Assembly: GCA_003326215.1 (NCBI GenBank)
Contig: LXQD01000205.1
Span: 1 to 32,000 of the forward strand
DNA length: 32,000 nucleotides
Reading direction: 5' to 3'
Source of the DNA: Nostoc minutum NIES-26
GTDB taxonomy: Bacteria > Cyanobacteriota > Cyanobacteriia > Cyanobacteriales > Nostocaceae
In this document: in pieces, positions 4,022 through 29,272 of the stretch
How the letters are laid out: each line of letters starts with the position of its first letter
Numbering within the stretch: the first letter of the stretch is position 1
Program-made: the position numbers and the translations under genes
Notes under the pieces: model-generated
What the model was told of the DNA's origin: nothing
Seen by the model: the letters and a program-made list of their open reading frames with translations, nothing else
The model's database searches: none

Positions 4022-4399
4022 ATGGAGCCAGCATCACTAACAGCAGCGGCTATTGCTACTTTGGTCATCACTAAGGCTTTTGAAAAGACTGGCGAAATCG
4101 TCGGTGAAAAGGTTTGGGAGGAAGGCGAACAGTTGTTATCACTACTGAAGCGCAAAGAACCTAGTACGGCGAGTGCGATTGAACTGACTCAAGCACTACC
4201 TTTAGATTATAGTCGGGCTTATCTGATTGGGCAGCAAGTAGAAGAAGCGGCGCAGAAAGACCCTGAGATTGCTGAAGCAGTGGAAGCTGTAGCCAAGGAG
4301 GCACAACCGAAACTGACGAATACTATTATTGAAAATTGGCAGGGAATAAATATTAAAGGTGGGACTAATACCATTTCTGGCAATACCTTTAATTTCTGA
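4022..4399 (+). CDS. helical N-terminal (effector-like) module, separated from the downstream NB-ARC/TPR ORF by one in-frame TGA
   Basis: 125-aa ORF. It has a hydrophobic first helix (SLTAAAIATLVITKAF), charged helices, and a G/N/T-rich tail NIKGGTNTISGNTFNF. It is in the same reading frame as 4460..6805, and TGA 4397-4399 is the only stop between them. Confidence 0.6.
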   Translation: MEPASLTAAAIATLVITKAFEKTGEIVGEKVWEEGEQLLSLLKRKEPSTASAIELTQALPLDYSRAYLIGQQVEEAAQKDPEIAEAVEAVAKEAQPKLTNTIIENWQGINIKGGTNTISGNTFNF

Positions 4400-8429: not shown

Positions 8430-8999
8430 ATGATAGCCTCCTCCCAACAGAATTACCTTACCCCTGAAGAGTACCTCCAACTAGAGGAACAAAACTCTGT
8501 TAAACATGAATACATCGACGGCTACATCTACGCAATGGCTGGGGCGCTTGACCCACATGTTACCATTGCTCTTAACCTTGCTTCTCTCCTCCGCAATCAT
8601 GTACGCGGTACTGGGTGTCGCGTTTACATCGCCGACATGAAAGCACGAATTGAATCTCTAAATCGCTTTTACTATCCCGATGTTATGGTTACTTGCGATC
8701 CACGCGATCGAGAAACACCAGCCTATAAAAGATTTCCTTGTTTAATTGTCGAAGTTTTATCCGATTCTACCGAAGCCTTTGACCGGGGCGATAAATTCGC
8801 CGACTACCAAGCGCTGGAAAGCCTCCAAGAATATACTTTAATTAATACAAAACGTCAGCGAGTCGAGTGTTTTCGTCGCAATGATGAGGGGCTGTGGGTT
8901 TTACAATCTTACACATCAGAAAATCAAACATTTCGGCTTAACAGTGTGGATTTCCAGGAAACAATAGTATCACTTTACGAAGATGTAGTTTTTGAATGA
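8430..8999 (+). CDS. Uma2-family (DUF820) putative endonuclease
   Basis: 189 aa, with EYIDGYIYAMAG, YYPDVMV, LIVEVLSDST and GDKFADYQALESLQEYTLI, matching the PD-(D/E)xK-like Uma2 pattern common in cyanobacteria. Confidence 0.8.
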   Translation: MIASSQQNYLTPEEYLQLEEQNSVKHEYIDGYIYAMAGALDPHVTIALNLASLLRNHVRGTGCRVYIADMKARIESLNRFYYPDVMVTCDPRDRETPAYKRFPCLIVEVLSDSTEAFDRGDKFADYQALESLQEYTLINTKRQRVECFRRNDEGLWVLQSYTSENQTFRLNSVDFQETIVSLYEDVVFE

Positions 9000-12526: not shown

Positions 12527-12897
12527 AAATTAGTCAAATTGTTAATTGCTAGTCTATTTGATTGTGCTTGTCTTCAGCTGTTTGGTAGATAAAAAAGCGT
12601 TTTACGAGCTTACCATCATCACGTTTGAGATAGTACCAAGATAACGAAACTGAAAAATCTTAACCGACAAATTAAACTTATTATCCACAAGAGTGCAAAT
12701 GTCTCAAACTCAGACCGAAAACTTTTGTGAAAGCGCTGTGCTTGCTGACTTCACAGTCTGCCCCATAGCAGTAAAGAATTCCATGCCCTGGTTGATAGGC
12801 GGCAGCCAGTGTTTTACACATTGATTGCGAGGTCGTGGTAGACAAAAATCAGCGACGTATTCGTGACTCGCTCAAGAAACACATTTTCATGCACCGT

Positions 12898-13742
12898 CAA
12901 TTTTTAGAGACAAAATTGCTGGCATTATGTTTGAAATGTTGAATAACAAAAAACACCGTAAATGCACGCATATTATAGTCAGAACTGAAATTTTCAGAAT
13001 AAGTCGCAGATGAAGACAGCATCTTGTTTACCGTTAGGCATAGACCAAAAGCTATATACAGTAGTAGGTATTGAGTTGTGATAAAGTTATGCATAGCTTT
13101 CAGATATTGACTTTGCGTGTTTAGTCTCAGACTTTTAGATTCAGGACAATTCTACCAAATGGAATAGTCCATTATTGATATTTCGCTATTGGGATTTATG
13201 CTAGCTATTTTTTTAATTTAAATGGTTATGTAATTCACCAAAAAAAATATTTGTCTCTAGTTAAAATGTGGGACAGACATAATTGTAATTATTAGGTCTT
13301 TTCCAGATAGTTTATCTAGTTGATTATTGAAAATGTTTGAAGCACAATAGCATCAAGTAGTTAAGTTAAAGAGCTTAATTACCTACAAAAACAACTTGTC
13401 GAGAGTCAACTATTCTAGGAGTAAATTATGTCAACTATCGCTGTTTCCGAACTAAACAACGCTGGCATTCAATTGTTTGAAGATTCCGAAAACTTTCTCA
13501 ATGACCTAAGCGATATAGATTCCATCTCTGTATATGGTGGTGGTGGTAATGGTGGTAATGGTGGTGTTAGTGATGTTACAACCTTGACAAAGCTGGCTGA
13601 AGGATTTGTGACTGTATATGCTGTTGGTCACATTGCTGATATAGCTAAATCATTCAGCGCAATTCAGTAATGAAAACGATAGTTCATTACTAATCTCTAA
13701 AACGCTTATCGGAGGCAAGGGAAAAACAATCTCTGCTATCAG
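12898..13742. repeat. left arm of a large inverted duplication
   Basis: It is the reverse complement of 14311-15147. The 5' region and leader-coding part are near-identical; the distal end (12898-13100) is more diverged. Confidence 0.9.
13428..13670 (+). CDS. double-glycine-leader peptide precursor (bacteriocin / microcin / pheromone-like), copy A
   Basis: 80 aa, with GGAG 8 nt upstream of the ATG. The leader ends LSDIDSISVYGG (fits LSxxELxxIxGG). The core is Gly-rich then amphipathic and contains no Cys. Confidence 0.7.
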   Translation: MSTIAVSELNNAGIQLFEDSENFLNDLSDIDSISVYGGGGNGGNGGVSDVTTLTKLAEGFVTVYAVGHIADIAKSFSAIQ

Positions 13743-13848
13743 CATGAAGGTTCGCGGATTACTGAGCCTCCGAAAGTGTCTACCAAAACTAGCTATTTAT
13801 ATAGCTTAGCTATAGTAAAAGATTTGCCATGCTCTCCTGAAAAATAAC

Positions 13849-13880
13849 AACCTAGCCAATTAGATTGGCTAGGTTTTTTC
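13849..13880 (+). terminator. intrinsic terminator downstream of peptide gene A
   Basis: AACCTAGCCAAT-taga-TTGGCTAGGTT followed by a T-run (TTTTTC). Confidence 0.7.
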
Positions 13881-14236
13881 TATTAAAAAAACTTCAAAAA
13901 ACTTTTATTTATCCATGTATAGGATGTATTTAAAGCTCAACAAGTTTAACATTTTAGTTTAGATAAACACTTTCATAAATGAGATTGTTGCAGATAAAAT
14001 TAACCACTACATAAGTTGTGCAATCTTTGCAAAACAATGGTTTAAAAATAAAAAAACAACAGATAATTAAAAGTCTTTATGTATTACTCTACTGCTATAC
14101 CAATATAAACTTTAGTGATGTAGCATAAGATTTTATAACATAGCTACAAGGATTCGAAGCTACTAAAAACTATAGAGTTTTAAATTGTACTGCTTGAAGT
14201 ATGTAAGACTAATTTAGGATTGCTAAATAACTTGTG

Positions 14237-14273
14237 ACAAACAAAATCCCCAACTTCTCAAAGAAGTCAGGGA
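14237..14273 (-). terminator. probable intrinsic terminator downstream of peptide gene B
   Basis: Imperfect hairpin TCCCCAACTTCT / AGAAGTCAGGGA (10 of 12 pairs), followed on the minus strand by TTTTGTTTGT. Confidence 0.5.
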
Positions 14274-14310
14274 TCTGTGGGTTTCGATTCTCAGAAATCA
14301 AGTAAAATTG

Positions 14311-15147
14311 CTACAGCAGAGATTCTTTTTCATTACCTCCTATAAGCGTTATAAAGATTAATAATGAACTATCGTTTTCATTACTGAATTGCGCTGAATG
14401 ATTTAGCTATGTTAGCAATGTGACCAACGCCATATACAGCTACAAATGCTTGAGCTAGCTTCGTTAATGGTGTAGCATCACTAGCACCACCATTACCACT
14501 AGCACCACCATATACAGAGATAGAATCTATATCACTTAGGTCATTGAGAAAGTTTTCGGAATCTTCAAACAATTGAATGCCAGCGTTGTTTAGTTCGGAA
14601 ACAGCGATAGTTGACATAATTTACTCCTAGAATAGTTGACTCTCGACAAGTTGTTTTTGCAGGTAATTAAGCTCTTTAACTTAACTACTTGATGCTATTG
14701 TGCTTCAAACATTTTCAATAATCAACTAGATAAACTATCTGGAAAAGACCTAATAATTGCAATTATGTCTGTTCCACATTTTAGCTAGAGACAAATATTT
14801 TTTCTGGTGAATTACATAACCATTTAAATTAAAAAAATAACTAGCATAAATCTCAATTGTGAAATATTGATAAAGGACTATTCCATTCGGTAGAATTGTC
14901 CTGAAACTAAAAGTCTGAGACTAAACACGCAAAGCTAATATCTAAAGGCTATACATCAATTTGTTACTACTCAACACTTATTCCTCTATATAACTTTTGG
15001 AATATGTCAAACGGCAAGCAAGATGCTGTCTTTATCTACGACTTCTTATTCCAATTTCAGTTCTGACTATAATATGCGTGCATTTACGGTATTTTTTGAA
15101 TTCAATAATTCAAACTTAATGCCAGCAATTTTGTCTCCAAAATTAGT
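14311..15147. repeat. right arm of the large inverted duplication
   Basis: It is the reverse complement of 12898-13742. Confidence 0.9.
14381..14617 (-). CDS. double-glycine-leader peptide precursor, copy B
   Basis: 78 aa. The first 38 residues are identical to copy A, with only 2 synonymous nt differences. The core is diverged (ASGNGGASDATPLTKLAQAFVAVYGVGHIAN...). Confidence 0.7.
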   Translation of the reverse strand: MSTIAVSELNNAGIQLFEDSENFLNDLSDIDSISVYGGASGNGGASDATPLTKLAQAFVAVYGVGHIANIAKSFSAIQ

Positions 15148-15238
15148 GAGTTTTTCCAAATGTAATACTTTCGCAAATTAACCATGCAAATTTGATAGAA
15201 TAGCAAGTTAGTTGTTTTTATAGGTAATTAATGCTTTT

Positions 15239-15271
15239 GCCCTCTGCCCTAGACAGAGGGCTTTTTGTTTT
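15239..15271 (+). terminator. hairpin plus T-run (GCCCTCTG-ccctaga-CAGAGGGC TTTTTGTTTT)
   Basis: Read directly. It lies between the inverted duplication and the response-regulator gene. Confidence 0.6.
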
Positions 15272-15594
15272 GCAAAAGATTAGCGATCGCTAGAAGTCAA
15301 GATATTGTCCAAAAATCAGATTTGTCTTGGGCTGGTTCTGGGAGGCATTTGTTCGTGACTAGCGCTCTTGCGTCACTCTGAGAAAGAAATCAAAGACAAC
15401 TAACGCCTAGATGGCAGGCTGGATAGAGAAAGAAGAAATTTGTAGAGCATGTGCGAGATTCTTTTTAGCTTTATACATAAACCTAAAAAGTAAATTTTTT
15501 TCTCTGGGTAGAATTTCCAGGAACTTTCTACAGATACACTAGTCATGCGATAGGCAAGCTGGGGAAGATTTAAGCAGTAGAGGGTGTTTTTGCA

Positions 15595-18009
15595 ATGAGA
15601 ATCTTGCTGATTGAAGATGACGAGATATTAGCGAGTGTCTTGTTGCAGTCTCTTACCCAACAACACTATGTTGTTGATACCGCACATGACGGACAAACTG
15701 GTTGGGAATATGCCCAAGGCACGCAGCACGACCTGATATTACTAGATGTGGGACTGCCAAAGCTGGATGGAATTACATTATGTCAACGCTTACGTTCTGA
15801 TGGCTATTCTGCTCCTATTTTGTTGATGACAGCGAAAGATGCAACTAGCGATCGCATTCGTGGACTCGATGCTGGAGCAGATGATTATCTGATTAAACCT
15901 TTGGATTTGGGAGAACTCCAAGCAAGAGTCAGGGCGTTGCTGCGTCGGGGCGATACTCCCCGTACTCCAGTGCTAGAAGTTGGTGCATTACGGTTAGATC
16001 CAAGTAGCTGTCAGGTAACATACAATAATCAACTGCTAGATTTAACACCCAAAGAATACAGTTTGCTGGAACTTTTGCTGCGGAATCCCTCGCGGGTTTT
16101 CAGTCGGGGAAATATCATCGAGCATCTCTGGACTTTCGACGATCCACCCCAAGAAGAAAGCGTCAAATCGCACATTAAAGGCTTGCGACAAAAGATGAAA
16201 GCAGCCGGAGCAGCAGACTGGATTGAAAACGTATATGGTTTGGGATATCGTCTGAATCCATCTTCAGGAGGAAGAGAAGTAGGAGAGCAGGGGAGCAGGA
16301 AGAGAAGTTGCCATAGCGTAGCGTTAGCGAGTCATCGAGCGTCGGAGGGTTTCCCTCCAAGCAAACTTCGGGGAGCAGAGGAGCAAGGGAGAAACTTTAA
16401 TCCAAAATTGCAAATCCCAAATTCTGAAGTTGAACAACAGTTCAACCAAGCTATGAGTGGCTTGTGGAGTCAATATCAGGGGTTGATGACACAACGGATG
16501 GAGGTAGTACAACAAGCAGCAGCAGCCATTTCTAGCAAAACGCTGACTCAAGAGTTACGCCAATCCGCAGAACGGGAGGCGCACAAGCTAGCTGGTGTCT
16601 TGGGAATGTTTGAGCAAGAAACTGGTACTCAGATAGCGCGAGAAATCGAACAGATTTTAGGCAAAGATGGAGACTTGTTACCAGCCCAAAAACGTCGGGT
16701 GTTGTCGCTAATACAAGAGTTAGCTGAATTGCTCAACCTGATGGGACAAAAGGTAGTTAATCAACCTACTATCTCGATGGTGGAAGAAATCAGTGCCAGA
16801 TTGCTACTAATTGACCCCGATTTGCAACTTGGTTTTCAGCTACAAGAACTGGCGCAATCTGAAGGAATAGGCTGGCAGCAAATCACAACCCTAGAAAGTG
16901 CGAAAAACTACCTGCAAACGACATTACCAGATTTAGTGGTGCTGAGTGTAGATGAAGTGGGGCTGCGGGAAGCAAGTTTAGCAATGCTTTCAGACTTAGC
17001 AACTCGCACCCCTCCTGTACCCGTGCTTGTGCTGGCTGCTGCTGATGGGTTGGTAGATCGCGTGAGCGTTGCTAGGTCTGGGGCGCGGGGTTTTCTGGTC
17101 AAGCCTGTCACCGCGAATCAAGTTTGGGATGTTGGGTCTGCACTATTACAGCGCACCCATTCTCTAACAGTCAATTTACTAGTAGTAGATGACGATCCGC
17201 TGATTTTGGCAGCTTTACGCCCAATGTTAGAGCCTTGGGGTATGCGTGTTACAGGATTAGACGAGCCGGTACGTTTCTGGGATGTACTGCAATCTACCAC
17301 ACCCGATTTGTTGATTTTGGATGTGGAGATGCCGCAAATAAGTGGTATTGAACTTTGCCAAGCAGTTCGTACAGATCCCCAGTGGCAGGAATTGCCGATT
17401 GTATTTCTCACCGCGCACCGAGAGATGGAAACTGTGCAGCAGGTATTTGCAGCTGGAGGAGATGATTATGTGGTCAAACCTGTCGTTGTGGCAGAACTGG
17501 TGGCAAGGATAACCCATCGCTTAGAACGCAGTCGTCTGCTTCACTCTTTCTGCACTCAAGACCCTTTAACCCGACTAGCAAATCAATCTCAGTCTAGCCG
17601 CGACTTGCAGCACCTGATTGCTCAAGCAAACAAAAATCAACACCCTGTTTGCTTAATGGTATTGAGTGCAATCGAGTTGCACCAAATTAATATCCAGTAC
17701 GGTCATGAGGCCGGCAACCAAGTCTTGCAACGATGGAGTCGTCTGTTTCAATCGACATTTTGTAGTGGCGAATTACTCAGCTATTGGGGCAACGGGGAGT
17801 TTGTGGTGGGAGTGTCTGGATTGACAAAAACAGAAGTAAGCACTCAGCTCAGTGATATTTTGACTACCCTTCGCCAACAAATATTCACAGCATCCAATGG
17901 CGATCGCTTCCAGGCAACATGTAGTTTTGCGATAGTTGAGTATCCTAATGATGGATTAACAATACAATCTCTCTATAAAATTGCTAATTCTACCTTGAAG
18001 CATAATTAA
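15595..18009 (+). CDS. multidomain response regulator: REC - OmpR-type wHTH - HPt - REC-like - REC - degenerate GGDEF
   Basis: 804 aa. REC1 has D51 (15745-15747) and LIKP. The wHTH region reads LTPKEYSLLELLL...VYGLGYRL. The HPt motif is EAHKLAGVLGMF (His at 16582-16584). The second REC-like region carries VLSVD and LVKP, and the third REC carries VVDDD, LILDVEMP and VVKP. The C-terminal domain starts DPLTRLAN and has GNGEF (17788-17802) in place of GGDEF, and it lacks the usual DxD. Confidence 0.9.
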   Translation: MRILLIEDDEILASVLLQSLTQQHYVVDTAHDGQTGWEYAQGTQHDLILLDVGLPKLDGITLCQRLRSDGYSAPILLMTAKDATSDRIRGLDAGADDYLIKPLDLGELQARVRALLRRGDTPRTPVLEVGALRLDPSSCQVTYNNQLLDLTPKEYSLLELLLRNPSRVFSRGNIIEHLWTFDDPPQEESVKSHIKGLRQKMKAAGAADWIENVYGLGYRLNPSSGGREVGEQGSRKRSCHSVALASHRASEGFPPSKLRGAEEQGRNFNPKLQIPNSEVEQQFNQAMSGLWSQYQGLMTQRMEVVQQAAAAISSKTLTQELRQSAEREAHKLAGVLGMFEQETGTQIAREIEQILGKDGDLLPAQKRRVLSLIQELAELLNLMGQKVVNQPTISMVEEISARLLLIDPDLQLGFQLQELAQSEGIGWQQITTLESAKNYLQTTLPDLVVLSVDEVGLREASLAMLSDLATRTPPVPVLVLAAADGLVDRVSVARSGARGFLVKPVTANQVWDVGSALLQRTHSLTVNLLVVDDDPLILAALRPMLEPWGMRVTGLDEPVRFWDVLQSTTPDLLILDVEMPQISGIELCQAVRTDPQWQELPIVFLTAHREMETVQQVFAAGGDDYVVKPVVVAELVARITHRLERSRLLHSFCTQDPLTRLANQSQSSRDLQHLIAQANKNQHPVCLMVLSAIELHQINIQYGHEAGNQVLQRWSRLFQSTFCSGELLSYWGNGEFVVGVSGLTKTEVSTQLSDILTTLRQQIFTASNGDRFQATCSFAIVEYPNDGLTIQSLYKIANSTLKHN
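16265..16395. repeat. in-frame repeat-derived insert in the regulator linker
   Basis: GGAGAGCAGGGGAGCAGG and GGGGAGCAGAGGAGCAAGGGAG flank GCCATAGCGTAGCGTTAGCGAG...CGGAGGGTTTCCCTCC. The inner piece resembles GCGTAGCGTCGACC...CGGAGGGAGACC at 30955-31000. Confidence 0.7.
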
Positions 18010-20949: not shown

Positions 20950-21564
20950 ATGTTTCAGCCTTTAGTAGAACCGATAATCTTTGAAGAATTTCTGGAATGG
21001 AAACCAGAAAATGGCAGATATGAATTACATAAAGGAGCCATATTTGAAATGCAGCCAACAGGAGACCATGAGCTAGTTAGAGCATTTTTGATTAGAGAAC
21101 TCAATTTTGAGATTCGTAAGTTTAATTTAGCTTATACAATTCCTGGTCAAGCATTAGTCAAATCAGTTGATAAGAAATCTGGTTATATTCCAGATGTATT
21201 AGTATTGAATGTCCCTAACTTGGTTAATGAGCCATTTTGGAAAAAGTCATCTACGGTTACTCAAGCAGAATCAATTCCATTGGCAGTAGAAGTTGTCAGT
21301 ACAAATTGGCGAGATGATTATTTCCTAAAATTTGGTGAATACGAGGAAATTGGAATTCCAGAATATTGGATTGTTGACTATGCTGCTCTTGGCGGAAAGC
21401 GGTTTATTGGAAATCATAAACAGCCAACAATATCAGTTTATGTTTTAGTTGACGGTGAATACCAAGTTACTCAATTCCGGGGTAATGATAAAATTCAATC
21501 GCCAACTTTCCCAGAGTTAAATTTAATCGCTGAACAAGTGTTTCAGTCTGCTTTGATTGAATAG
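20950..21564 (+). CDS. Uma2-family (DUF820) putative endonuclease
   Basis: 204 aa, with YELHKGAIFEM, YIPDVLVL, PLAVEVVSTNW, and KFGEYEEIGIPEYWIVD. Confidence 0.8.
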   Translation: MFQPLVEPIIFEEFLEWKPENGRYELHKGAIFEMQPTGDHELVRAFLIRELNFEIRKFNLAYTIPGQALVKSVDKKSGYIPDVLVLNVPNLVNEPFWKKSSTVTQAESIPLAVEVVSTNWRDDYFLKFGEYEEIGIPEYWIVDYAALGGKRFIGNHKQPTISVYVLVDGEYQVTQFRGNDKIQSPTFPELNLIAEQVFQSALIE

Positions 21565-23212: not shown

Positions 23213-23821
23213 ATGGTACAAGTGCTCGCTCCTAACGAAACGTTCTTGCAAAATGCAATTGTTGAAAGAATTAACTTTTCTAAGTTAAACAAAACTCGTA
23301 TTCGCTTTAGTATTAGGTTGAAAAACAGTACAATTAGTGCAGCACCTAAATGGGCAGATGTGCTAAAAACTTCTGACACTGACACCGAATCCGACTTAAT
23401 CAAGGTGACGAATTCTGAAGTCGGTCTGCGCGGCATCAAGGTATTCAAAGCCCTGAATGAAGCAGCCTCCCAACTCAGGCAAGAAATTGCATCAGTGCAG
23501 GAGTGGATGAGTTCTGACAACGGAGATTGGATCTGTCCGATAGACCTTGCACCTTTGGTTTGGAGTCAGTTGCTCAACATCCGAGACGCGATCGCTCCCA
23601 ATCTCCGCGCTGGACTACTAGACGAGTACGAGAAAGGCTTAGAAGATTACAAGCAACGAATAGAAAACTTCATCTCTATCCAGGCTTGGGAACTGTCACA
23701 CCTTCAGCAAGAAGAAGTCAAAGCTAATCTGCTAAGAGCTTTTCCAAATTTAAGCGAGTTAGAAGATTGTTTGCAGGTAATCATCGGTCGCCCCGTTATG
23801 ATCCCAGCATTGGTGCATTAG
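23213..23821 (+). CDS. hypothetical protein, last gene of the operon; its 3' end overlaps the convergent methyltransferase gene
   Basis: 202-aa ORF with natural-looking composition (…LLDEYEKGLEDYKQRIENFISIQAWELSHLQQEEVKANLLRAF…). It overlaps 23796..25970 by 26 nt. Confidence 0.5.
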   Translation: MVQVLAPNETFLQNAIVERINFSKLNKTRIRFSIRLKNSTISAAPKWADVLKTSDTDTESDLIKVTNSEVGLRGIKVFKALNEAASQLRQEIASVQEWMSSDNGDWICPIDLAPLVWSQLLNIRDAIAPNLRAGLLDEYEKGLEDYKQRIENFISIQAWELSHLQQEEVKANLLRAFPNLSELEDCLQVIIGRPVMIPALVH

Positions 23822-25970
23822 TATAATTTGTAGTGGCATGGCAAGGTGAGCGAGAAATGCGATCGCTTGCCTTGCCACTAACGGATATTATGGGAATACG
23901 GGACATTTCACGCTCTTGAGCATACTGCTTTTTTAGGGTTTCAATAGAAGCAAGGTAAGTACGGATGCTTTTTTCCCATTCCTCAGTACCGTAGGTTCGT
24001 AATAGTTCGAGCGCACTTGCTTCAATTTGATACACAGTTTTTGGACTGTTGATAGGGCGGCTCAGATCGTCTGGATTAGCAACTATCAAAGCGGCATCCA
24101 GAAATTGATGTACTGTCTGGCGGCGTACTGTTTCTCGTGTATTGGGCTTATAGGTTTTGCCATAATGCTGAGCCATGAATTCCATCATCGGCGTGATTCC
24201 CATAAAAGGGGAAGTTGCTAATTGCCAAGAGTCTGTCGGCTTTAAGTCAAGTAACGCCAGAAGGGTTAAAGCTGACCGTTCGTTAAGCTGTCTTCGTGGA
24301 AAGCCCAATTGTGACAAAATTTGCACCGCTTCATCAATTCGAGACTTAATTGCGATGGGATTGTTGCCTGACTGATTCGACATACTCAGTAACTTATTTT
24401 CCACAAGTTCATCGATTGCGCGCAAAGAGAGAAACTGTTCTTTGATTTCCGTCCCTAAAGACAATAGTTGTTCCAAAGTAGGATACTTTAATTTCCGCAA
24501 ATCTGTTGCATTTACCTGAGTATGTCCATTGAACAACCGAAAGAATGAATCAACCAAGGTTGAATTAAGATAAACTGCAAGCCCACAAGCCAAGGTATAG
24601 CTAAGTCCACGCCCCTGTTTGTGAAAGTAATTCAAGTGATTTTCAAAGCCGACATAAGCATAATCGAATCGATCGGCATTATAAATGACCGCAACAACCC
24701 GTCTTTTCTCTTCTTTTGACGAAAATCTTTTGCAGAGGACATAATGCTCATTTGGTACCAGAAGATTCTTTGTTTCTGCTCTATGCACTATAGCTTGGGG
24801 CTTTTTGGTTATTTTGGGATGCTCTATATATCCATCTGAGAAATTTACCGGATAAATCAAAGGAACAGTATTTTTTTCGGAATTTGTTCTGAGGTAATTT
24901 TTAGCTCGAAAATCTACAACCTTTCCAGTTGAAACTGTTAGCCCTAAATCTTGCAAAGTGCAAGTGAAAAGTGCCATTTGCTGAACAATTTGCTGGCTAA
25001 TTTTATCTGGAAGAATATGAATGAACTGCTCTTTATCGTCAGGGTGAACTAAATTCGCATATGGTACAGAGTGTGACATGATATAGTCATCATTAGCACC
25101 AAAGCTAGTATTAATGATTACGCTGCTAAACTTTTGCTCTTGTTTTGTAGCTCGGACGATCGCAGTTTCTTGTAGAACATCATCATTAAATGCTTCTTGC
25201 CGCGACTCAAAAAGATGTACTTGTTGTAAAGCCATCATCTCCAAAAACATCTTCCGAAAGTCACAAAAATACGGGCCATTGCAAAAACTACGCGGGGTAA
25301 TCGCTACAAACTCCCCTTTTGGTTTTAGCAGTTTTGCTGTGGCAGCCATAAAACCAGTATAAAGATTGCTAGTTTCCAAACCTATAGAACGTAGCAATTT
25401 CCGAACTTGGGAATGAGCATTGATTTTTAAATAAGGTGGATTGAGGATTGCATGGGTAAATTCTGCTGGATTTGTATTATTTAATAAACCAAGCTGAAGT
25501 CGCTTAACAGCATCTTCAATAAAATCAGTCTCACGAATTTCGTAATTGAAAGAAATACTTACATGTTGGCATTCTCTGGCACATAGCTCTAAAGTCTGGC
25601 GCAAATACCCGATCAGAAAAGGGTCAATTTCATAGGCTACAATACGTAAACTTGACGTATGTTGCTGCTGGCATACTTTGGTCACAAAAGCGGCTAGTAA
25701 TGAACCGATTCCAGCTCCGGCATCAAGCAAAAATATTTCAGGCAAATCCAGCCTATCAAACATCCCAGCCATCAATTCCGCCACCGAAGCGGGGGTGAGA
25801 AACTGCCCCATTAATCCTTTTTTATTTTGTCTTAGTTTAAAACTTGCTACAGCCCGATGCAGATCCACTTCTGCAAGCAAGTTGCCCCTAGATAATTGTG
25901 CTAGGCTGCTAAAACCTAAAATACTTCTATCACTTGCTACGAAAGCTTTACTACTTGATGGAATGCTCAC
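23796..25970 (-). CDS. N6-adenine DNA methyltransferase (gamma-class, Eco57I/PstI-like) fused to a BsuBI/PstI-type restriction endonuclease N-terminal DNA-binding domain; the nuclease domain is missing
   Basis: 724 aa. The SAM motif LLDAGAGIGSL precedes the catalytic NPPY (AILNPPYLKI). Residues from about 540 to 690 (…LGFPRRQLNERSALTLLALLDL…GITPMMEFMAQHYGKTYKPNTRETVRRQTVHQF…) match my memory of the BsuBI/PstI RE N-domain. The ORF ends about 35 aa later in unrelated sequence. Confidence 0.8.
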   Translation of the reverse strand: MSIPSSSKAFVASDRSILGFSSLAQLSRGNLLAEVDLHRAVASFKLRQNKKGLMGQFLTPASVAELMAGMFDRLDLPEIFLLDAGAGIGSLLAAFVTKVCQQQHTSSLRIVAYEIDPFLIGYLRQTLELCARECQHVSISFNYEIRETDFIEDAVKRLQLGLLNNTNPAEFTHAILNPPYLKINAHSQVRKLLRSIGLETSNLYTGFMAATAKLLKPKGEFVAITPRSFCNGPYFCDFRKMFLEMMALQQVHLFESRQEAFNDDVLQETAIVRATKQEQKFSSVIINTSFGANDDYIMSHSVPYANLVHPDDKEQFIHILPDKISQQIVQQMALFTCTLQDLGLTVSTGKVVDFRAKNYLRTNSEKNTVPLIYPVNFSDGYIEHPKITKKPQAIVHRAETKNLLVPNEHYVLCKRFSSKEEKRRVVAVIYNADRFDYAYVGFENHLNYFHKQGRGLSYTLACGLAVYLNSTLVDSFFRLFNGHTQVNATDLRKLKYPTLEQLLSLGTEIKEQFLSLRAIDELVENKLLSMSNQSGNNPIAIKSRIDEAVQILSQLGFPRRQLNERSALTLLALLDLKPTDSWQLATSPFMGITPMMEFMAQHYGKTYKPNTRETVRRQTVHQFLDAALIVANPDDLSRPINSPKTVYQIEASALELLRTYGTEEWEKSIRTYLASIETLKKQYAQEREMSRIPIISVSGKASDRISRSPCHATTNYTNAPMLGS

Positions 25971-26179: not shown

Positions 26180-28699
26180 CTACTTAAGCGGTACAAACTC
26201 ATATTCATCAGCACCAAGTTTTCGTTGAACTTTGACTAAGAAGATGGGATTATTTGTGCGATCGCCTGATGGTAAAAATTGAATCTTTCCCGTGGCACCA
26301 TCGACTGAAAAACTTGAACTGTGCAGCACCCTTTGCAATTCATCGCGCCTGTTAGTTTGCTCCAAACCTTTGACTATTGCTAAAGTTGCATCATAAGCTG
26401 TAGCTGTTCGCCAATTCACAGTTGCACCCCAAAGTCTCTGAGCGTTTTGCACAAAGATGTTATTTGGAAATGCTGCGGGATACCAAGGTGCAGAGATGAT
26501 CAGTCCGTCGATACCTCTACCTTCCTTTAAGGTTTCGTCAGTGAAAAGTGTCGGACTACCAAATACAGTCAACTGTCCTTGATTAGATTGTGCTACCGCT
26601 AGACCTTGCTTGATTTTGTCTATATAAAGACCTAACACCAATCCATTAGCACCGCTACCTACAGCTTGAGAAATGACAGCACTAGGGTTAAAGTCACGGG
26701 CAGAAATATCGCACTCTGTAGAATTAATCTGACCGCCAGCAGCCTTTATTGCTCTGACAAACTCACTGTTAAACGATTGATTATCTATCCCTTGGTAATC
26801 AACACAGATCAGAAAATTGGTTTTGCCCGCTTTTTTAATGGCGTAATTAGAGACGCTATCTGCTATGGATTTAACACTAGGAGCAGTGCGAAAAATATAG
26901 TTGCCAATACTGGTAAGGTTTTGGGCATAACTAGTAGGAGATATCATTACTAACCCGTCTTTTTGATAGACTGGGGCTGCGGAGAGGGAAGCATTACTAG
27001 AATTATGTCCCACGACAGCCAAAATGTGAGTATCTATGACAAACTCAGTGGCAAGCTGTGCGGCTTTGCTTGGGTTATTGCTATCATTAGCGATCGCTAC
27101 CTCCAAAGCTTTGCCTTTAATACCACCATTGTTATTTATTTCATCTTGGGCTTGAGCTACACCGCGTAACATCTCTTGTGCTACGTTTCGGTTAGTGCCA
27201 ATGGGTACGCTCACAGCAATTTTAAGCCGCTCTCCTTGCTGACGAGCTTTAGTATTATTCAGGTAAATCAAGGCTTCTGGATCTCTGAGGTTAGCTATTC
27301 GATATGAATCAAATTTATTAATAGCAGTCTGACAATCACCATTTAAAAATGCCCTAGATCCAGCTTCTTTATCTGAGTTCGTATCTTGTTTATCTAAAAT
27401 TTCTTCGCCCAGGCTAATGTTGTCATTCAAACTATAAGTCTCTTTACCACAAGAATTTAGTGCAGGCGCAACTACAGTTGTAGACGAATTTTTGGTTAGA
27501 AAATAGACTACAGTACCACCAATCACTACTCCAATTATTCCGATAATGAACGCTCCCATGTAGTTTAAATAATTGCTATTGCGGGAGTATGTAGAATTGA
27601 CATCTACTGGAGATGTGGTGACTTTTTGTTCCGTAATTATCGGAGCTTCAATTAAGGCTATATCTTCATCTCTTAGTCCTAACACTTGCTGAAGACGTTT
27701 TAAATTAGCGCGAGTTCTATCACTGAGCGGAACCTCATTTTCAATCTCCTTACGTAATGCTTGCTCATATCGCTGCAATTTTTTCTTGTAAACTTCAATA
27801 GGTGCTAAAACTTCAGTTTCAATTGCAGCAGCCTCCTCAGGTGCTAGTTCTAGCCCATCTTGTAGCCCGTCCAATGCCGCGCGACCAATAAAAGAAATCT
27901 CACCGTTACCACCCTCTACCCAATACTCAACTTCTCGACGATATTTGAGCTTAGGGTCATCGGTAGGTGCTTTGGCAAGCTTGATTTTATAACCTCCTTT
28001 GACAGGATATATCTCTGGTTTCATTGCTGGAGCAGCTTCTTGTACCTTCTTGGCAGCATAATCATGCAATTCATCAACCGAAATCCAACCATCTTCATCC
28101 CAATCTGCTGCACCAGTCTCCAGCCCTTCAACTATGTAGCGCGTGTAAGTTGAGGTATCTGCTCCTTGTTGTTCAAAAGAATACTGGGTTGAAGTACTAG
28201 ATGTGAGAACAGCCCGTCCTTCACCACCTAATTGGTTCTTGACATCTACAAAACCATCATCTCTTGCTAACATACCCTCGGCAAACGCACCACTAAAGCA
28301 ACAATCAAGAATCACTACTTGATGCTTAGAGCGGCTAGTAGTCATGAACCTATGCACAGAACTAGCTGCTACTGCGGTTGTCTCAACAAGTCTCCCCTGT
28401 AAATTTTTGCGGGTGTTGCAAGTAGCAAAGTAAAGCTTACCGCTCTCATCTTTAATGCCATGACCAGAGAAAAATAACAGCAAGAGGTCATCTTTTTGAC
28501 GACCATCAAACAAGGTTTCAATGGCTTCCTCCATTGCTTGTCGTTGAGGATTTACCAGTACTTTTACCTCATCAAAACCGCCAATCTCGGAGTTTTGCAA
28601 AACTCGCTGCATTGCTTCAACATCTTTTGCTGCCGCTGGCAATGGGGTTAGATTAGACTCATACTCGCTTATCCCAATTAGCAGTGCTACTTTCGCCAT
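26180..28699 (-). CDS. caspase (peptidase C14) - helical linker - single TM helix - type-1 periplasmic binding protein (LivK/ANF-receptor-like) fusion
   Basis: 839 aa. The His-Cys dyad contexts are FFSGHGIKD and VILDCCFSGAF. The TM helix is MGAFIIGIIGVVIGGTVVYFL. The C-terminal part of about 400 aa has PBP1 hallmarks (KIAVSVPIGTN, LAVVGHNSSNAS, FRTAPS, WRTATAYDA). Confidence 0.9.
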   Translation of the reverse strand: MAKVALLIGISEYESNLTPLPAAAKDVEAMQRVLQNSEIGGFDEVKVLVNPQRQAMEEAIETLFDGRQKDDLLLLFFSGHGIKDESGKLYFATCNTRKNLQGRLVETTAVAASSVHRFMTTSRSKHQVVILDCCFSGAFAEGMLARDDGFVDVKNQLGGEGRAVLTSSTSTQYSFEQQGADTSTYTRYIVEGLETGAADWDEDGWISVDELHDYAAKKVQEAAPAMKPEIYPVKGGYKIKLAKAPTDDPKLKYRREVEYWVEGGNGEISFIGRAALDGLQDGLELAPEEAAAIETEVLAPIEVYKKKLQRYEQALRKEIENEVPLSDRTRANLKRLQQVLGLRDEDIALIEAPIITEQKVTTSPVDVNSTYSRNSNYLNYMGAFIIGIIGVVIGGTVVYFLTKNSSTTVVAPALNSCGKETYSLNDNISLGEEILDKQDTNSDKEAGSRAFLNGDCQTAINKFDSYRIANLRDPEALIYLNNTKARQQGERLKIAVSVPIGTNRNVAQEMLRGVAQAQDEINNNGGIKGKALEVAIANDSNNPSKAAQLATEFVIDTHILAVVGHNSSNASLSAAPVYQKDGLVMISPTSYAQNLTSIGNYIFRTAPSVKSIADSVSNYAIKKAGKTNFLICVDYQGIDNQSFNSEFVRAIKAAGGQINSTECDISARDFNPSAVISQAVGSGANGLVLGLYIDKIKQGLAVAQSNQGQLTVFGSPTLFTDETLKEGRGIDGLIISAPWYPAAFPNNIFVQNAQRLWGATVNWRTATAYDATLAIVKGLEQTNRRDELQRVLHSSSFSVDGATGKIQFLPSGDRTNNPIFLVKVQRKLGADEYEFVPLK

Positions 28700-28728
28700 C
28701 TGGCTATTCTTCCTTGCTGATAAATTTC

Positions 28729-29106
28729 TCAGTTGCCTGCAATAAACTTTTGAGCTTCTTCAATGGCGGCGGTTAACTCTTCGCGACTGCTAGCTTTGAC
28801 TTTAAGCTTCTTACCATTAGCTTCAACTTCTAATTCAATTGGTTTATTACCCAAGCGATCGCCCAAAAATCCCAGCAATTTCTTAAAATTGGCAAGGCTC
28901 ACCTCAGCTTGCAACACTCCCAGCAGAAAACCTCCAAAAGCTTTCGATCCTTCAGGTGTTTCTGTAACTGCTACAAGTTCAGCACTTTCTACATCTAAGT
29001 CTTGTATTTCCCGCAACAGATTTCGCGTTTGCTGCTCTTGTTCCTCTGGATCTAAGTCTGGATTAGTAAGAGCGATCGTTAGTTTGACGTTAGATTCAGA
29101 ACTCAT
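28729..29106 (-). CDS. small acidic protein resembling the effector-associated constant component EACC1
   Basis: 125 aa, ending 29 nt upstream of the caspase ATG, with AAGGAAG in between. The C-terminal pattern GGFLLGVLQAEVSLANFKKLLGFLGDRL...IELEVEANGKKLKVKASSREEL resembles EACC1 as I recall it (not searched). Confidence 0.6.
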   Translation of the reverse strand: MSSESNVKLTIALTNPDLDPEEQEQQTRNLLREIQDLDVESAELVAVTETPEGSKAFGGFLLGVLQAEVSLANFKKLLGFLGDRLGNKPIELEVEANGKKLKVKASSREELTAAIEEAQKFIAGN

Positions 29107-29272
29107 TTTGTACCCTTTTAGGTTTTCTAGCAGTTGACAGTCAATAGCATTTCCGTGATATCTCTATTGACATCATACTCGCTATGTAATATTCCCTAAA
29201 TTTTTTTAAGATTTTTACAGAAATTTATAAAGTTTAAGTAAAAATATGTAGAGAGACAAGCGATCGCTTTTG

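What the first reader, a model, noticed from the sequence alone, without database searches (positions are those of the whole stretch)
26180..29106. Receptor-like caspase: EACC1-like small protein plus a cytoplasmic caspase wired through one TM helix to an extracytoplasmic ligand-binding (PBP1) domain
The two genes are co-oriented and 29 nt apart, so an operon is likely. The upstream 125-aa acidic protein resembles the small constant partner (EACC1) reported next to variable effectors in NTP-dependent conflict systems. I recall this from the comparative-genomics literature and from RefSeq naming ('caspase, EACC1-associated type'); I did not search. The 839-aa protein has an intact caspase His/Cys dyad at its N-terminus and a helical linker with an LSxxxRxxLxxLQxxLGL motif. 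This is followed by one strong TM helix and about 400 aa of a LivK/ANF-receptor-type periplasmic binding fold. This topology implies that an external small molecule, possibly an amino-acid-like ligand, could gate a death-type protease. No STAND NTPase, vWA or MoxR component lies adjacent. The next upstream gene is a lone ABC-2 permease.
Basis: partly seen in the sequence, partly recalled or inferred. Interest (0 to 1): 0.72.

Follow-up and report, generated by a model that had tools for sequence, protein, structure and literature searches.

The report
EACC1 toxin with receptor-like caspase
This Nostoc gene pair is an already described two-gene cell-death module: a small latent pore-forming protein (EACC1) followed by a membrane-anchored caspase whose outer part is a ligand-binding domain. 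It is real but not new.

Summary
A 125-aa ORF (28729-29106, minus strand) lies 29 nt upstream of an 839-aa ORF (26180-28699, minus strand).

**Large protein.** It passes NCBIfam "caspase, EACC1-associated type" (183 bits; cut-off 140). It has an invariant His80/Cys133-134, a five-helix linker and one Gly-rich hydrophobic segment. Its C-terminus is a LivJ-like type-I periplasmic binding fold (Pfam E 2e-39; Foldseek TM 0.85).

**Small protein.** It hits no profile library directly. It is nevertheless a divergent cyanobacterial EACC1: relatives 37-42% identical pass the Pfam EACC1 cut-off. Its AlphaFold model matches the published autoinhibited monomer with a disordered cleavage loop.

**Neighbourhood.** In 79 genomic loci the EACC1-caspase pairing is nearly universal, while the C-terminal module varies (PBP, TPR, EAL, FGE-sulfatase, CVNH, WD40).

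**Prior knowledge.**
- Kaur et al. 2020 list TM + PBP variants of this system.
- Orthocaspase surveys list ANF/Peripla_BP_6 fusions and propose ligand-triggered death.
- RefSeq already names orthologues.
- Evans et al. 2025 showed that a caspase cleaves EACC1 into a pore-forming fragment.

**Most likely mechanism (inferred).** An outside ligand activates the caspase, which cleaves EACC1 and releases a membrane pore. The ligand is unknown, and the LivJ amino-acid clamp is only half conserved.

**Verdict.** A new member of a known kind, of modest interest.

The parts
29107..29272 (-). 166-nt AT-rich leader / presumed promoter region between the ABC-2 permease gene and the EACC1 gene
   Evidence: Sequence. 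No consensus sigma-70 site was found by the simple scan and there is no Rfam match. The promoter is assumed, not shown.
28729..29106 (-). EACC1-family gene (125 aa): a latent pore-forming effector of a divergent cyanobacterial clade
   Evidence: No direct Pfam or NCBIfam hit. 363 representative homologues. 19 of 60 aligned relatives hit PF19953, and P0183 (26.4 bits) and P0231 (23.9 bits) pass the 23.6-bit cut-off over model positions 5-106 of 107. AF2 model has pLDDT 82.
28969..29106 (-). EACC1 residues 1-46: N-terminal beta-alpha-beta unit, the predicted autoinhibitory fragment
   Evidence: AF2 secondary structure: E6-13, H20-36, E41-46. This corresponds to the non-toxic N-terminal fragment of Evans 2025.
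28930..28968 (-). EACC1 residues 47-59: disordered loop, the predicted caspase cleavage region. Lys55 (codon 28942-28944) is the best P1 candidate.
   Evidence: pLDDT < 50 at residues 50-53 and 56-58. Position 55 is K/R in 55 of 60 sequences, P51 is conserved in 50 of 60 and G53 in 43 of 60. Asp at the position equivalent to the published Asp49 site occurs in only 29 of 60 and is Val in the window.
28732..28929 (-). EACC1 residues 60-125: Gly-patch hydrophobic strand/helix followed by beta-beta-alpha, the predicted pore-forming fragment
   Evidence: E60-70, H71-85, E90-96, E99-105, H108-124. G58 and G63 are conserved. The KD maximum is 1.31, so this is not a classical TM helix. It corresponds to the toxic C-terminal fragment in Evans 2025.
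28700..28728 (-). 29-nt intergenic spacer with an AAGGAAG ribosome-binding-like motif; no terminator
   Evidence: The spacing of 9-67 nt is conserved across the loci.
28010..28699 (-). Caspase (Peptidase_C14, EACC1-associated type) domain, residues 1-230. His80 codon is 28460-28462; Cys133-Cys134 codons are 28298-28303.
   Evidence: NF047832 at 182.9 bits against a cut-off of 140. Pfam E 7e-22. H80, C133, C134, D26 and D132 are invariant and E176 is >=90% conserved. The low-confidence loop 140-150 carries K/R146 in 49 of 51 sequences.
27566..28009 (-). Cytoplasmic helical linker, residues 231-378 (five helices). It contains two copies of an S-x3-R-x2-L-x2-LQ-x2-L-x-L type helix.
   Evidence: AF2 helices at 249-263, 270-282, 287-321, 327-340 and 344-359. 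The linker is co-conserved with the caspase domain in nearly all downstream genes, whatever their C-terminal module. No Pfam match.
27494..27562 (-). Single predicted transmembrane segment, residues 380-402, with a conserved Gly ladder (G387, G390, G394, G395)
   Evidence: KD 19-mer maximum of 2.47 and the only segment above 1.6. Gly conservation. AF2 gives low confidence here.
27230..27493 (-). Extracytoplasmic stalk and three-helix cap, residues 403-490, with conserved Cys417/Cys456
   Evidence: Helices at 442-452, 456-469 and 474-488. C417 is present in 51 of 51 sequences and C456 in 44 of 51.
26183..27229 (-). Type-I periplasmic binding protein (Peripla_BP_6 / ANF_receptor, LivJ-like Venus flytrap) domain, residues 491-839: the presumed extracellular sensor
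   Evidence: Pfam E 2e-39. Matches LivJ/LivK at E 1e-15. Foldseek hits 4q6b/4mlc/3td9 with TM-score 0.85-0.86 normalised to the target. Cys632/Cys663 co-vary: CC in 43, FF in 7, never mixed.

Best explanation
The two genes form an EACC1-caspase cell-death module ('System 4' of Kaur et al. 2020) whose variable module is an extracellular sensor.

Proposed sequence of events:
1. The 839-aa protein sits in the cytoplasmic membrane as a single-pass protein. The caspase domain and a helical linker face the cytoplasm. A disulfide-stabilised LivJ-type Venus-flytrap domain faces outwards.
2. Binding of an unidentified small molecule outside closes the flytrap.
3. Through the Gly-rich transmembrane segment and the helical linker, this brings two caspase domains into an active arrangement. 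Self-cleavage at the conserved K/R146 loop may be involved.
4. The active caspase cuts the co-expressed 125-aa EACC1 protein in its disordered loop (residues 47-59; most likely after the conserved Lys55).
5. The cut removes the N-terminal inhibitory beta-alpha-beta unit. The C-terminal fragment then oligomerises into pores in the cell's own membrane, and the cell dies or stops growing.

Shown here: the domain identities, predicted folds, topology signatures, residue conservation, and the conserved pairing with a swappable C-terminal module.

Shown elsewhere for a homologue (Ktedonobacter EACC1 with KrAvs12): caspase cleavage near residue 49, toxicity of the C-terminal fragment, and liposome leakage.

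Inferred: ligand gating, the cleavage site, pore formation by this particular protein, and the biological trigger.
For: - Caspase type: the domain passes the curated 'caspase, EACC1-associated type' model, and the dyad is invariant.
- EACC1 identity: the small ORF is homologous to Pfam-positive EACC1 proteins. It has the family's Gly-patch hydrophobic segment.
- EACC1 fold: the AF2 model (pLDDT 82) shows an N-terminal beta-alpha-beta unit, a disordered loop at 50-58 and a C-terminal unit. This matches the published autoinhibited monomer, which is cleaved at about residue 49 into 5.7 and 7.1 kDa fragments.
- Pairing: a caspase gene lies 9-67 nt downstream in nearly all 79 loci, with constant caspase and linker and at least 16 classes of C-terminal module.
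- Selection: dN/dS is 0.12 for EACC1, 0.18 for the caspase, 0.45 for the linker and 0.35 for the PBP. Identity is mosaic, which indicates module exchange.
- Outside location of the PBP: there is no N-terminal signal peptide and only one hydrophobic segment. Cys632/Cys663 co-vary perfectly and Cys417/Cys456 are conserved.
- PBP fold: confirmed.
- P1 specificity: basic-P1 specificity is plausible. D132 is invariant and E176 >=90% conserved; these are the residues proposed for Arg-P1 binding in a Nostoc PCC 7120 orthocaspase. K/R55 is the most conserved loop residue.
- Published models: Kaur 2020 lists TM+PBP variants. PMC7475262 proposes ligand-triggered orthocaspase death.
Against: - No experiment exists on any PBP-coupled member, so ligand gating is purely inferred.
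- Evans 2025 place the cleavage at an Asp, predicted from an AlphaFold3 model. The window protein has Val at the equivalent position, so the scissile bond is uncertain.
- AF2 does not model the TM segment as a helix. No dedicated topology predictor was available, and the flanking charges are not decisive (2.2 versus 1.6 K+R).
- The module sits in a syntenic chromosomal position in many Nostoc genomes and is very widespread in Nostocales. That also fits a physiological or developmental role rather than defence.
- An extracellular sensor cannot detect intracellular phage proteins the way Avs-type partners do.
Confidence: 0.6

Rival explanations
1. Original Kaur et al. 2020 model. EACC1 is a membrane-inserted sensor (a single TM helix) that activates the caspase. 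The caspase then auto-cleaves to release the C-terminal variable domain as the effector.
For: This is stated in the defining paper. The central segment of EACC1 is conserved, hydrophobic and Gly-rich. The caspase has a conserved basic residue (K/R146) in a flexible loop that could be an autoprocessing site.
Against: A binding protein located outside the membrane is not a plausible toxic effector. The EACC1 hydrophobic segment scores only 1.31 on the KD scale, below TM thresholds, and is modelled as part of a soluble alpha+beta fold. Experiments on a homologue show EACC1 is the substrate and toxic effector, not the sensor.
Confidence: 0.08
2. A non-lethal signalling or developmental protease. 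The PBP senses a nutrient or filament-derived metabolite. The caspase processes EACC1 or other substrates to regulate membrane permeability or differentiation (hormogonia, necridia, akinetes) rather than acting as anti-phage abortive infection.
For: The PBP-type proteins found were all from Nostocales, with more than 100 clusters at 90% identity. In many Nostoc genomes the pair sits in a syntenic chromosomal position next to housekeeping genes such as ilvD. All parts are under purifying selection. An outside sensor suits intercellular or environmental cues.
Against: The only tested EACC1 is a lethal pore former. The locus shows hallmarks of conflict systems: module swapping at one position, truncated or frameshifted caspases in about 9 loci, orphan EACC1 genes in 5 loci, and a paralogue whose EACC1 is reduced to a 36-aa remnant. 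Relatives are fused to TIR, CHAT, TRADD-N and STAND domains.
Confidence: 0.22
3. Database reading: a membrane-tethered substrate-binding protein of a branched-chain amino-acid ABC importer, working with the neighbouring ABC permease. The caspase domain would be incidental.
For: RefSeq and JGI name many orthologues 'ABC transporter substrate-binding protein' or 'branched-chain amino acid transport system substrate-binding protein'. The best solved relatives are Leu/Ile/Val binders. An ABC-2 permease gene lies upstream.
Against: The upstream permease is an ABC2_membrane_6 protein, not LivH/LivM, and is adjacent in only 14 of 79 loci. No ATPase or LivHMGF genes are nearby. The caspase dyad is invariant and under strong purifying selection. 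Other sequences at the same position replace the PBP with TPR, EAL, FGE-sulfatase, CVNH or WD40. The LivJ Thr102 and Glu226 equivalents are not conserved.
Confidence: 0.03

Closest known systems
EACC1-caspase two-gene conflict system ('System 4', Kaur, Burroughs, Iyer & Aravind 2020, eLife, PMC7159879); mechanism from Evans et al. 2025 (bioRxiv 10.1101/2025.11.14.688446; Ktedonobacter EACC1 + KrAvs12)
   Same: A 5' small EACC1 gene and a 3' gene with an N-terminal caspase. The C-terminal module is variable. TM + extracellular PBP variants are explicitly listed in the defining paper. The predicted EACC1 fold and the central cleavage loop match the characterised homologue.
   Different: This EACC1 belongs to a divergent cyanobacterial clade that the Pfam model mostly misses and that databases call 'hypothetical'. 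Kaur et al. describe the system as mainly actinobacterial. The characterised example uses an intracellular STAND (Avs12) sensor of phage proteins, not an outside binding protein. The likely P1 here is Lys55 rather than Asp.
Cyanobacterial orthocaspases with ANF_receptor / Peripla_BP_6 accessory domains (Jiang 2010 and Asplund-Samuelsson 2012 as cited in PMC7475262; PMC8283722 Table 1)
   Same: The same protein architecture (p20 caspase domain, TM, extracellular PBP) in Nostocales, and the same published hypothesis of an extracellular ligand triggering caspase-dependent cell death.
   Different: The passages of those two surveys read here (searched for domain and topology terms only) do not mention the upstream EACC1 partner. 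They proposed a caspase cascade rather than cleavage of a pore-forming substrate.
LivJ/LivK-type (HAAT family, type-I) periplasmic binding proteins
   Same: A two-lobed Venus-flytrap fold (TM-score 0.82-0.86 normalised to the target, against Leu-bound structures). The lobe-1 Ser79 equivalent and the Ala100-Ala101 region are conserved in character.
   Different: The domain is fused to a caspase through a TM segment and has no partner ABC importer. The Thr102 equivalent is Tyr/Phe and the Glu226 equivalent is Thr (never Glu). It also has an extra N-terminal three-helix cap and two conserved Cys pairs.
Single-pass Venus-flytrap receptors such as natriuretic peptide (ANF) receptors (analogy from general knowledge)
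   Same: An extracellular type-I PBP domain, one TM helix and an intracellular enzyme whose activity depends on dimer geometry.
   Different: The intracellular output is a caspase, not a guanylate cyclase. No homology exists outside the PBP fold. Dimerisation is not shown here.
Caspase-gasdermin and bacterial protease-gasdermin pore systems (analogy)
   Same: A protease removes an inhibitory part of a latent pore former encoded next to it.
   Different: EACC1 is a ~125-aa ferredoxin-like alpha+beta protein with no detectable fold similarity to gasdermins. Foldseek gives only generic hits with TM <= 0.5.

Membership tests
EACC1-caspase two-gene system (Kaur 2020 System 4) | 5' gene encodes an EACC1 domain (Pfam PF19953) | tested here: met
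   There is no direct hit. The window protein matches P0183 (phmmer E 4e-19, 42% identity) and P0231 (E 1e-15), which score 26.4 and 23.9 bits against the 23.6-bit gathering cut-off over nearly the full model. 19 of 60 relatives hit PF19953, and no other family recurs. The feature is met by transitive homology.
EACC1-caspase two-gene system (Kaur 2020 System 4) | Conserved central hydrophobic segment with a patch of small or Gly residues, flanked by alpha+beta elements | tested here: met
   The segment is AFGGFLLGVL. G58 is conserved in 42 of 60 sequences and G63 in 53 of 60. The AF2 model is alpha+beta.
EACC1-caspase two-gene system (Kaur 2020 System 4) | 3' gene with an N-terminal caspase domain of the EACC1-associated type | tested here: met
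   NF047832 scores 182.9 bits against a cut-off of 140, over residues 4-221.
EACC1-caspase two-gene system (Kaur 2020 System 4) | Conserved adjacency and orientation of the two genes across genomes | tested here: met
   A caspase gene lies 9-67 nt downstream on the same strand in nearly all 79 loci with readable DNA. The exceptions are 5 orphan EACC1 genes and several truncated caspases.
EACC1-caspase two-gene system (Kaur 2020 System 4) | Constant caspase with highly variable C-terminal modules | tested here: met
   There are at least 16 tail classes, including Peripla_BP_6, PBP_like_2, TPR, EAL, FGE-sulfatase, CVNH and WD40.
EACC1-caspase two-gene system (mechanism of Evans 2025) | The caspase cleaves EACC1 in the central loop, and the C-terminal fragment forms membrane pores | not testable with these tools
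   Only structural consistency is available: a disordered loop at 50-58 between two folded units. Testing needs biochemistry or at least a multimer prediction.
Orthocaspase / Peptidase C14 | Caspase-haemoglobinase fold with an intact His-Cys dyad | tested here: met
   PF00656 at E 7e-22. H80 (SGHG) and C133/C134 (DCCFSG) are invariant in 51 sequences. The domain is modelled with high pLDDT.
Type-I periplasmic binding protein (Peripla_BP_6 / ANF_receptor) | Two-lobed Venus-flytrap fold | tested here: met
   PF13458 at E 2e-39 over model positions 12-339 of 343. Foldseek TM-score 0.82-0.86 normalised to the target.
LivJ/LivK branched-chain amino-acid binding proteins | Conserved alpha-amino-acid anchoring residues (Ser79, Thr102, Tyr202 per PMC6983066; Glu226 from my own recollection) | tested here: not met
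   The Ser79 equivalent is conserved (S568). The Thr102 equivalent is Y591 (F/Y in 40 of 51 sequences). The Tyr202 equivalent is Tyr in only 27 of 51. The Glu226 equivalent is T717 and never Glu.
LivJ/LivK branched-chain amino-acid binding proteins | Works with a LivHMGF-type ABC importer encoded nearby | tested here: not met
   No such genes are in the window. The ABC-2 permease neighbour is a different family and is adjacent in only 14 of 79 loci.
Extracytoplasmic location of the PBP domain (receptor topology) | Single TM segment with N-in / C-out orientation | tested here: inconclusive
   Supported by one strong hydrophobic segment, no signal peptide, and covarying or conserved Cys pairs outside. 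However, AF2 confidence is low for the segment, the flanking charge bias is weak, and no topology predictor or experiment was available.

The most novel reading that the evidence does not exclude
The pair is a bacterial 'extrinsic death receptor'. A strain-variable extracellular Venus-flytrap domain recognises a diffusible danger, kin or competitor molecule, for example something released by lysed neighbours in the filament. It directly licenses a caspase to unleash a pore-forming toxin, giving filament-level altruistic death or programmed necridium formation. Rapid exchange and divergence of the sensor domain among Nostoc strains would reflect changing ligand specificity.
Probability: 0.3. 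Interest if true: 0.7.

Novelty: new member of a known kind. Interest (0 to 1): 0.3.

Why it matters
As a discovery it adds little. The architecture, its pairing with EACC1 and the idea of ligand-triggered caspase death are all in the literature, and RefSeq already names the orthologues.

Its practical value has three parts.

1. It shows that the 'hypothetical' 125-aa proteins next to these caspases in Nostocales are divergent EACC1 effectors that Pfam and NCBIfam miss. Some are even mislabelled 'sugar ABC transporter permease'. Many of the large proteins are mislabelled as ABC substrate-binding proteins.
2. Combined with the 2025 demonstration that EACC1 is a caspase-activated pore former, the PBP-coupled members become a concrete system for testing whether a multicellular bacterium has a ligand-gated, outside-in cell-death pathway.
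3. The mosaic divergence of the sensor domain suggests that ligand specificity differs between strains.

Tried and rejected
- **Direct profile searches of the small ORF.** Pfam and NCBIfam (both at E <= 10) and PADLOC (at E <= 0.01) gave nothing. Membership had to be established through relatives.
- **The search for related loci with two protein alignments.** Both failed because no conserved stretch was available for back-translation. The single protein worked.
- **A suspected second pair.** The 125-aa ORF at 4022-4399 followed by the 781-aa ORF at 4460-6805 was rejected as a second EACC1-caspase pair. There is no sequence similarity, and the large protein is an NB-ARC/TPR STAND NTPase.
- **Foldseek of the EACC1 model against the PDB.** It returned only generic ferredoxin-like folds (TM <= 0.5), with no gasdermin or other pore-former match.
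- **phmmer of the caspase+linker region against PDB sequences.** No hits.
- **Functional linkage to the ABC-2 permease.** Rejected: it is adjacent in only 14 of 79 loci, and ilvD or other genes occupy that position elsewhere.
- **A conserved third gene.** None was found.
- **Promoter and terminator scan.** Uninformative: fewer sites than in shuffled controls.
- **Rfam and tRNA scans of the window.** Empty.
- **Ligand class from the pocket.** It could not be resolved.

Full report
**1. Observation**

The two ORFs exist exactly as described. One is 28729..29106 (-), 125 aa. The other is 26180..28699 (-), 839 aa. They are separated by 29 nt containing an AAGGAAG ribosome-binding-like motif.

The small protein is acidic (net charge -8) and has no segment that reaches a transmembrane hydropathy threshold (19-mer maximum 1.31).

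The large protein matches several models:
- Pfam Peptidase_C14 at residues 3-225, E 7e-22.
- Pfam Peripla_BP_6 at residues 501-825, E 2e-39, plus ANF_receptor and Peripla_BP_5.
- NCBIfam NF047832 'caspase, EACC1-associated type', 182.9 bits against a cut-off of 140.

It has exactly one strongly hydrophobic segment, residues ~380-402, with a KD score of 2.47. The upstream gene is an ABC2_membrane_6 permease, and the gene beyond it is a divergent DedA/VTT protein. The small protein is 100% identical to a 'hypothetical protein' of Nostoc minutum NIES-26.

**2. Is the small ORF an EACC1?**

It hits nothing directly in Pfam or NCBIfam (even at E <= 10) or in PADLOC at E <= 0.01. An exhaustive phmmer search nevertheless found 363 representative relatives. 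Among 60 aligned full-length relatives, 19 match Pfam PF19953 (EACC1), and no other family recurs in more than two.

Two relatives pass the gathering cut-off of 23.6 bits over model positions 5-106 of 107:
- P0183: 42% identical to the window protein, phmmer E 4e-19, 26.4 bits.
- P0231: 23.9 bits.

The family consensus carries the feature Kaur et al. describe: a conserved hydrophobic core with a Gly patch (…GSK-AFGGFLLGVL…).

The AlphaFold2 model (pLDDT 82, pTM 0.72) has three parts:
- An N-terminal beta-alpha-beta unit (residues 6-46).
- A disordered loop (pLDDT < 50 at 50-53 and 56-58).
- A C-terminal beta-alpha-beta-beta-alpha unit.

This is the layout Evans et al. report for the autoinhibited EACC1 monomer, which KrAvs12 cuts near residue 49 into a 5.7-kDa non-toxic N-terminal fragment and a 7.1-kDa toxic C-terminal fragment. 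Foldseek finds only generic ferredoxin-like folds. Other relatives of the small protein are fused to CHAT, TIR, TRADD-N, STAND or COR domains.

I conclude that it is a divergent, cyanobacterial EACC1.

**3. The large protein**

*Catalytic residues.* His80 (SGHG), Cys133/Cys134 (DCCFSG), Asp26 and Asp132 are invariant in 51 homologues, and Glu176 is >=90% conserved.

*Full-length model* (pLDDT 82.7):
- A confident caspase domain, with a floppy loop at 140-150 that carries K/R146 in 49 of 51 sequences.
- A low-confidence stretch (359-413) that includes the hydrophobic, Gly-ladder segment.
- A three-helix cap (442-488).
- A confident two-lobed PBP.

*PBP fold.* Foldseek places the PBP next to closed Leu-bound binding proteins (4q6b, 4n0q, 3td9), with TM-score 0.82-0.86 normalised to the target. 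It also lies near binders of keto acids, aromatic acids, pyroglutamate and urea, and near mGluR ectodomains.

*Pocket residues.* I used the LivJ residue list in PMC6983066 and, from my own recollection, Glu226.

| LivJ residue | Window equivalent | Conservation in 51 orthologues |
|---|---|---|
| Ser79 | S568 | conserved (S in 46) |
| Ala100 / Ala101 | T589 / S590 | conserved as Thr-Ser |
| Thr102 | Y591 | Phe/Tyr in 40 |
| Tyr202 | Y692 | Tyr in only 27 |
| Glu226 | T717 | never Glu |

An amino-acid ligand is therefore not supported, and the ligand class remains open.

*Topology.* There is no signal peptide and only one hydrophobic segment. Outside that segment, Cys632 and Cys663 co-vary perfectly (CC 43, FF 7, never mixed). 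Cys417 (51 of 51) and Cys456 (44 of 51) are also conserved. These are disulfide signatures, consistent with an extracytoplasmic PBP. The flanking charge bias is weak, and no topology predictor was available.

**4. Conservation of the pair**

A genome scan gave 79 loci with 49-90% EACC1 identity. In nearly every locus with readable downstream DNA, a gene with the same caspase domain and the same helical linker starts 9-67 nt after the EACC1 stop.

The C-terminal tail falls into at least 16 classes:
- Peripla_BP_6: 29 including the window.
- TPR: 7.
- PBP_like_2: 4.
- EAL: 4.
- FGE-sulfatase: 2.
- CVNH, WD40 and several unknown classes.

Among PBP-type orthologues the identity to the window is mosaic:

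| Region | Identity to window |
|---|---|
| EACC1 | 79-90% |
| Caspase | 63-87% |
| Linker | 42-76% |
| PBP | 40-87% |

The values are uncorrelated between domains. For example, L003 has caspase 63% and PBP 84%, while L005 has caspase 87% and PBP 61%.

Pairwise dN/dS is 0.12 for EACC1, 0.18 for the caspase, 0.45 for the linker and 0.35 for cap+PBP. This used the Nei-Gojobori method. Synonymous sites are partly saturated and recombination is ignored, so the values are indicative only.

No third gene is consistently linked. The ABC-2 permease is adjacent in 14 of 79 loci, ilvD occupies that place in 27, and the usual downstream neighbours are absent from the window.

Signs of decay are common. 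About nine loci have truncated or frameshifted caspases and five have orphan EACC1 genes. A paralogous caspase-PBP in N. minutum NIES-26 has a partner reduced to a 36-aa in-frame remnant.

**5. Mechanism**

The best-supported reading combines the anatomy above with published experiments on a homologue:
1. A ligand binds outside.
2. The signal passes through the Gly-rich TM segment and the helical linker.
3. The caspase is activated, possibly with autoprocessing at K/R146.
4. EACC1 is cleaved in loop 47-59.
5. The C-terminal fragment is released and assembles into pores.

The likely P1 residue is Lys55. It is K/R in 55 of 60 relatives and is the most conserved loop residue. Three further points support this:
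- The Asp equivalent to the published Asp49 site is present in only 29 of 60 relatives and is Val here.
- Orthocaspases are described as cleaving after basic residues (PMC6426788 abstract).
- D132 and E176, proposed by docking to give Arg-P1 specificity in a Nostoc PCC 7120 orthocaspase, are conserved here.

All steps after the domain assignments are inferred for this protein.

**6. Comparison with what is known, and novelty**

- Kaur et al. 2020 define the EACC1-caspase two-gene system. [quoted passage not shown]
- Orthocaspase surveys list ANF_receptor/Peripla_BP_6 fusions: 8 of 473 in PMC8283722, and Jiang 2010 and Asplund-Samuelsson 2012 as cited in PMC7475262. Figure 6 of PMC7475262 already draws ligand binding to an ANF domain activating the cytosolic p20 domain.
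- RefSeq names many orthologues 'caspase, EACC1-associated type'.
- Evans et al. 2025 supply the effector mechanism. The term search of that preprint found no mention of periplasmic or extracellular sensors.

What is modestly new here:
- Recognition that the unannotated small partners in Nostocales are divergent EACC1 proteins.
- The disulfide and topology evidence.
- The non-canonical pocket.
- The mosaic evolution of the sensor.
- A Lys55 cleavage-site prediction.

**7. Verdict**

This is a real, correctly read feature, and a new member of a known kind. Interest is 0.3. It becomes interesting mainly as a tractable test case for outside-in, ligand-gated cell death in a multicellular bacterium.

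Noticed in passing
window 4022-4399 (+) and 4460-6805 (+): A second 125-aa ORF with no Pfam match lies directly upstream of a 781-aa NB-ARC + ~9xTPR STAND NTPase. It is not homologous to the EACC1/caspase pair but could be another small-effector + STAND conflict module.
   Followed up: partly
window 23796-25970 (-): A 724-aa fusion of an Eco57I/N6_Mtase-type DNA methyltransferase with a BsuBI/PstI restriction-enzyme N-terminal HTH domain lies directly downstream of the caspase gene (PADLOC MTase_II 679 bits). No matching endonuclease catalytic domain was identified.
   Followed up: no
L080 3428-3538 (paralogous locus in Nostoc minutum NIES-26): A 58%-identical paralogue of the caspase-PBP protein (P0352) has only a 36-aa ORF upstream. 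The ORF is an in-frame internal deletion of EACC1 that keeps the start and residues ~95-125, so that copy has apparently lost its effector.
   Followed up: yes
loci L007, L009, L012, L015, L021, L039, L042, L054, L077; and L036, L045, L050, L057, L063: About nine loci have truncated or frameshifted caspase genes, and five have an EACC1 gene with no caspase downstream. Some may be MAG assembly errors, but the frequency suggests recurrent inactivation.
   Followed up: partly
proteins P0129, P0131, P0198, P0209, P0210: EACC1-like domains occur fused in one polypeptide to CHAT, TRADD-N, TIR, STAND NTPase and Roc-COR domains. Some may be gene-call fusions.
   Followed up: no
database names for homologues: Several EACC1 orthologues are named 'Sugar ABC transporter permease' in UniRef/NCBI. 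Many caspase-PBP proteins are named 'ABC transporter substrate-binding protein' or 'branched-chain amino acid transport system substrate-binding protein'. These are probable annotation errors propagated from neighbours or from the C-terminal domain.
   Followed up: partly
window 12527-15594: A ~3-kb AT-rich stretch (GC 0.32-0.34) has no ORF longer than 80 aa and no Rfam or tRNA match. It lies upstream of a REC-Trans_reg_C-Hpt-REC-GGDEF multidomain regulator at 15595-18009.
   Followed up: partly
window 8430-8999 (+), 20950-21564 (+); L080 6220-6858: There are two Uma2-family (putative restriction endonuclease-like) genes in the window, and another directly downstream of the paralogous caspase-PBP gene.
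   Followed up: no
window 27566-28009 (-), protein residues 231-378: The cytoplasmic linker contains two similar helix pairs (…ISFIGRAALDGLQDGLELAPEEAAAIE… and …LSDRTRANLKRLQQVLGLRDEDIALIE…). It has no Pfam match, yet it travels with the caspase domain whatever the C-terminal module is. It may be an undescribed signal-transmission or dimerisation domain.
   Followed up: partly
window 1782-3761 (+): A 659-aa ORF with no Pfam match.
   Followed up: no
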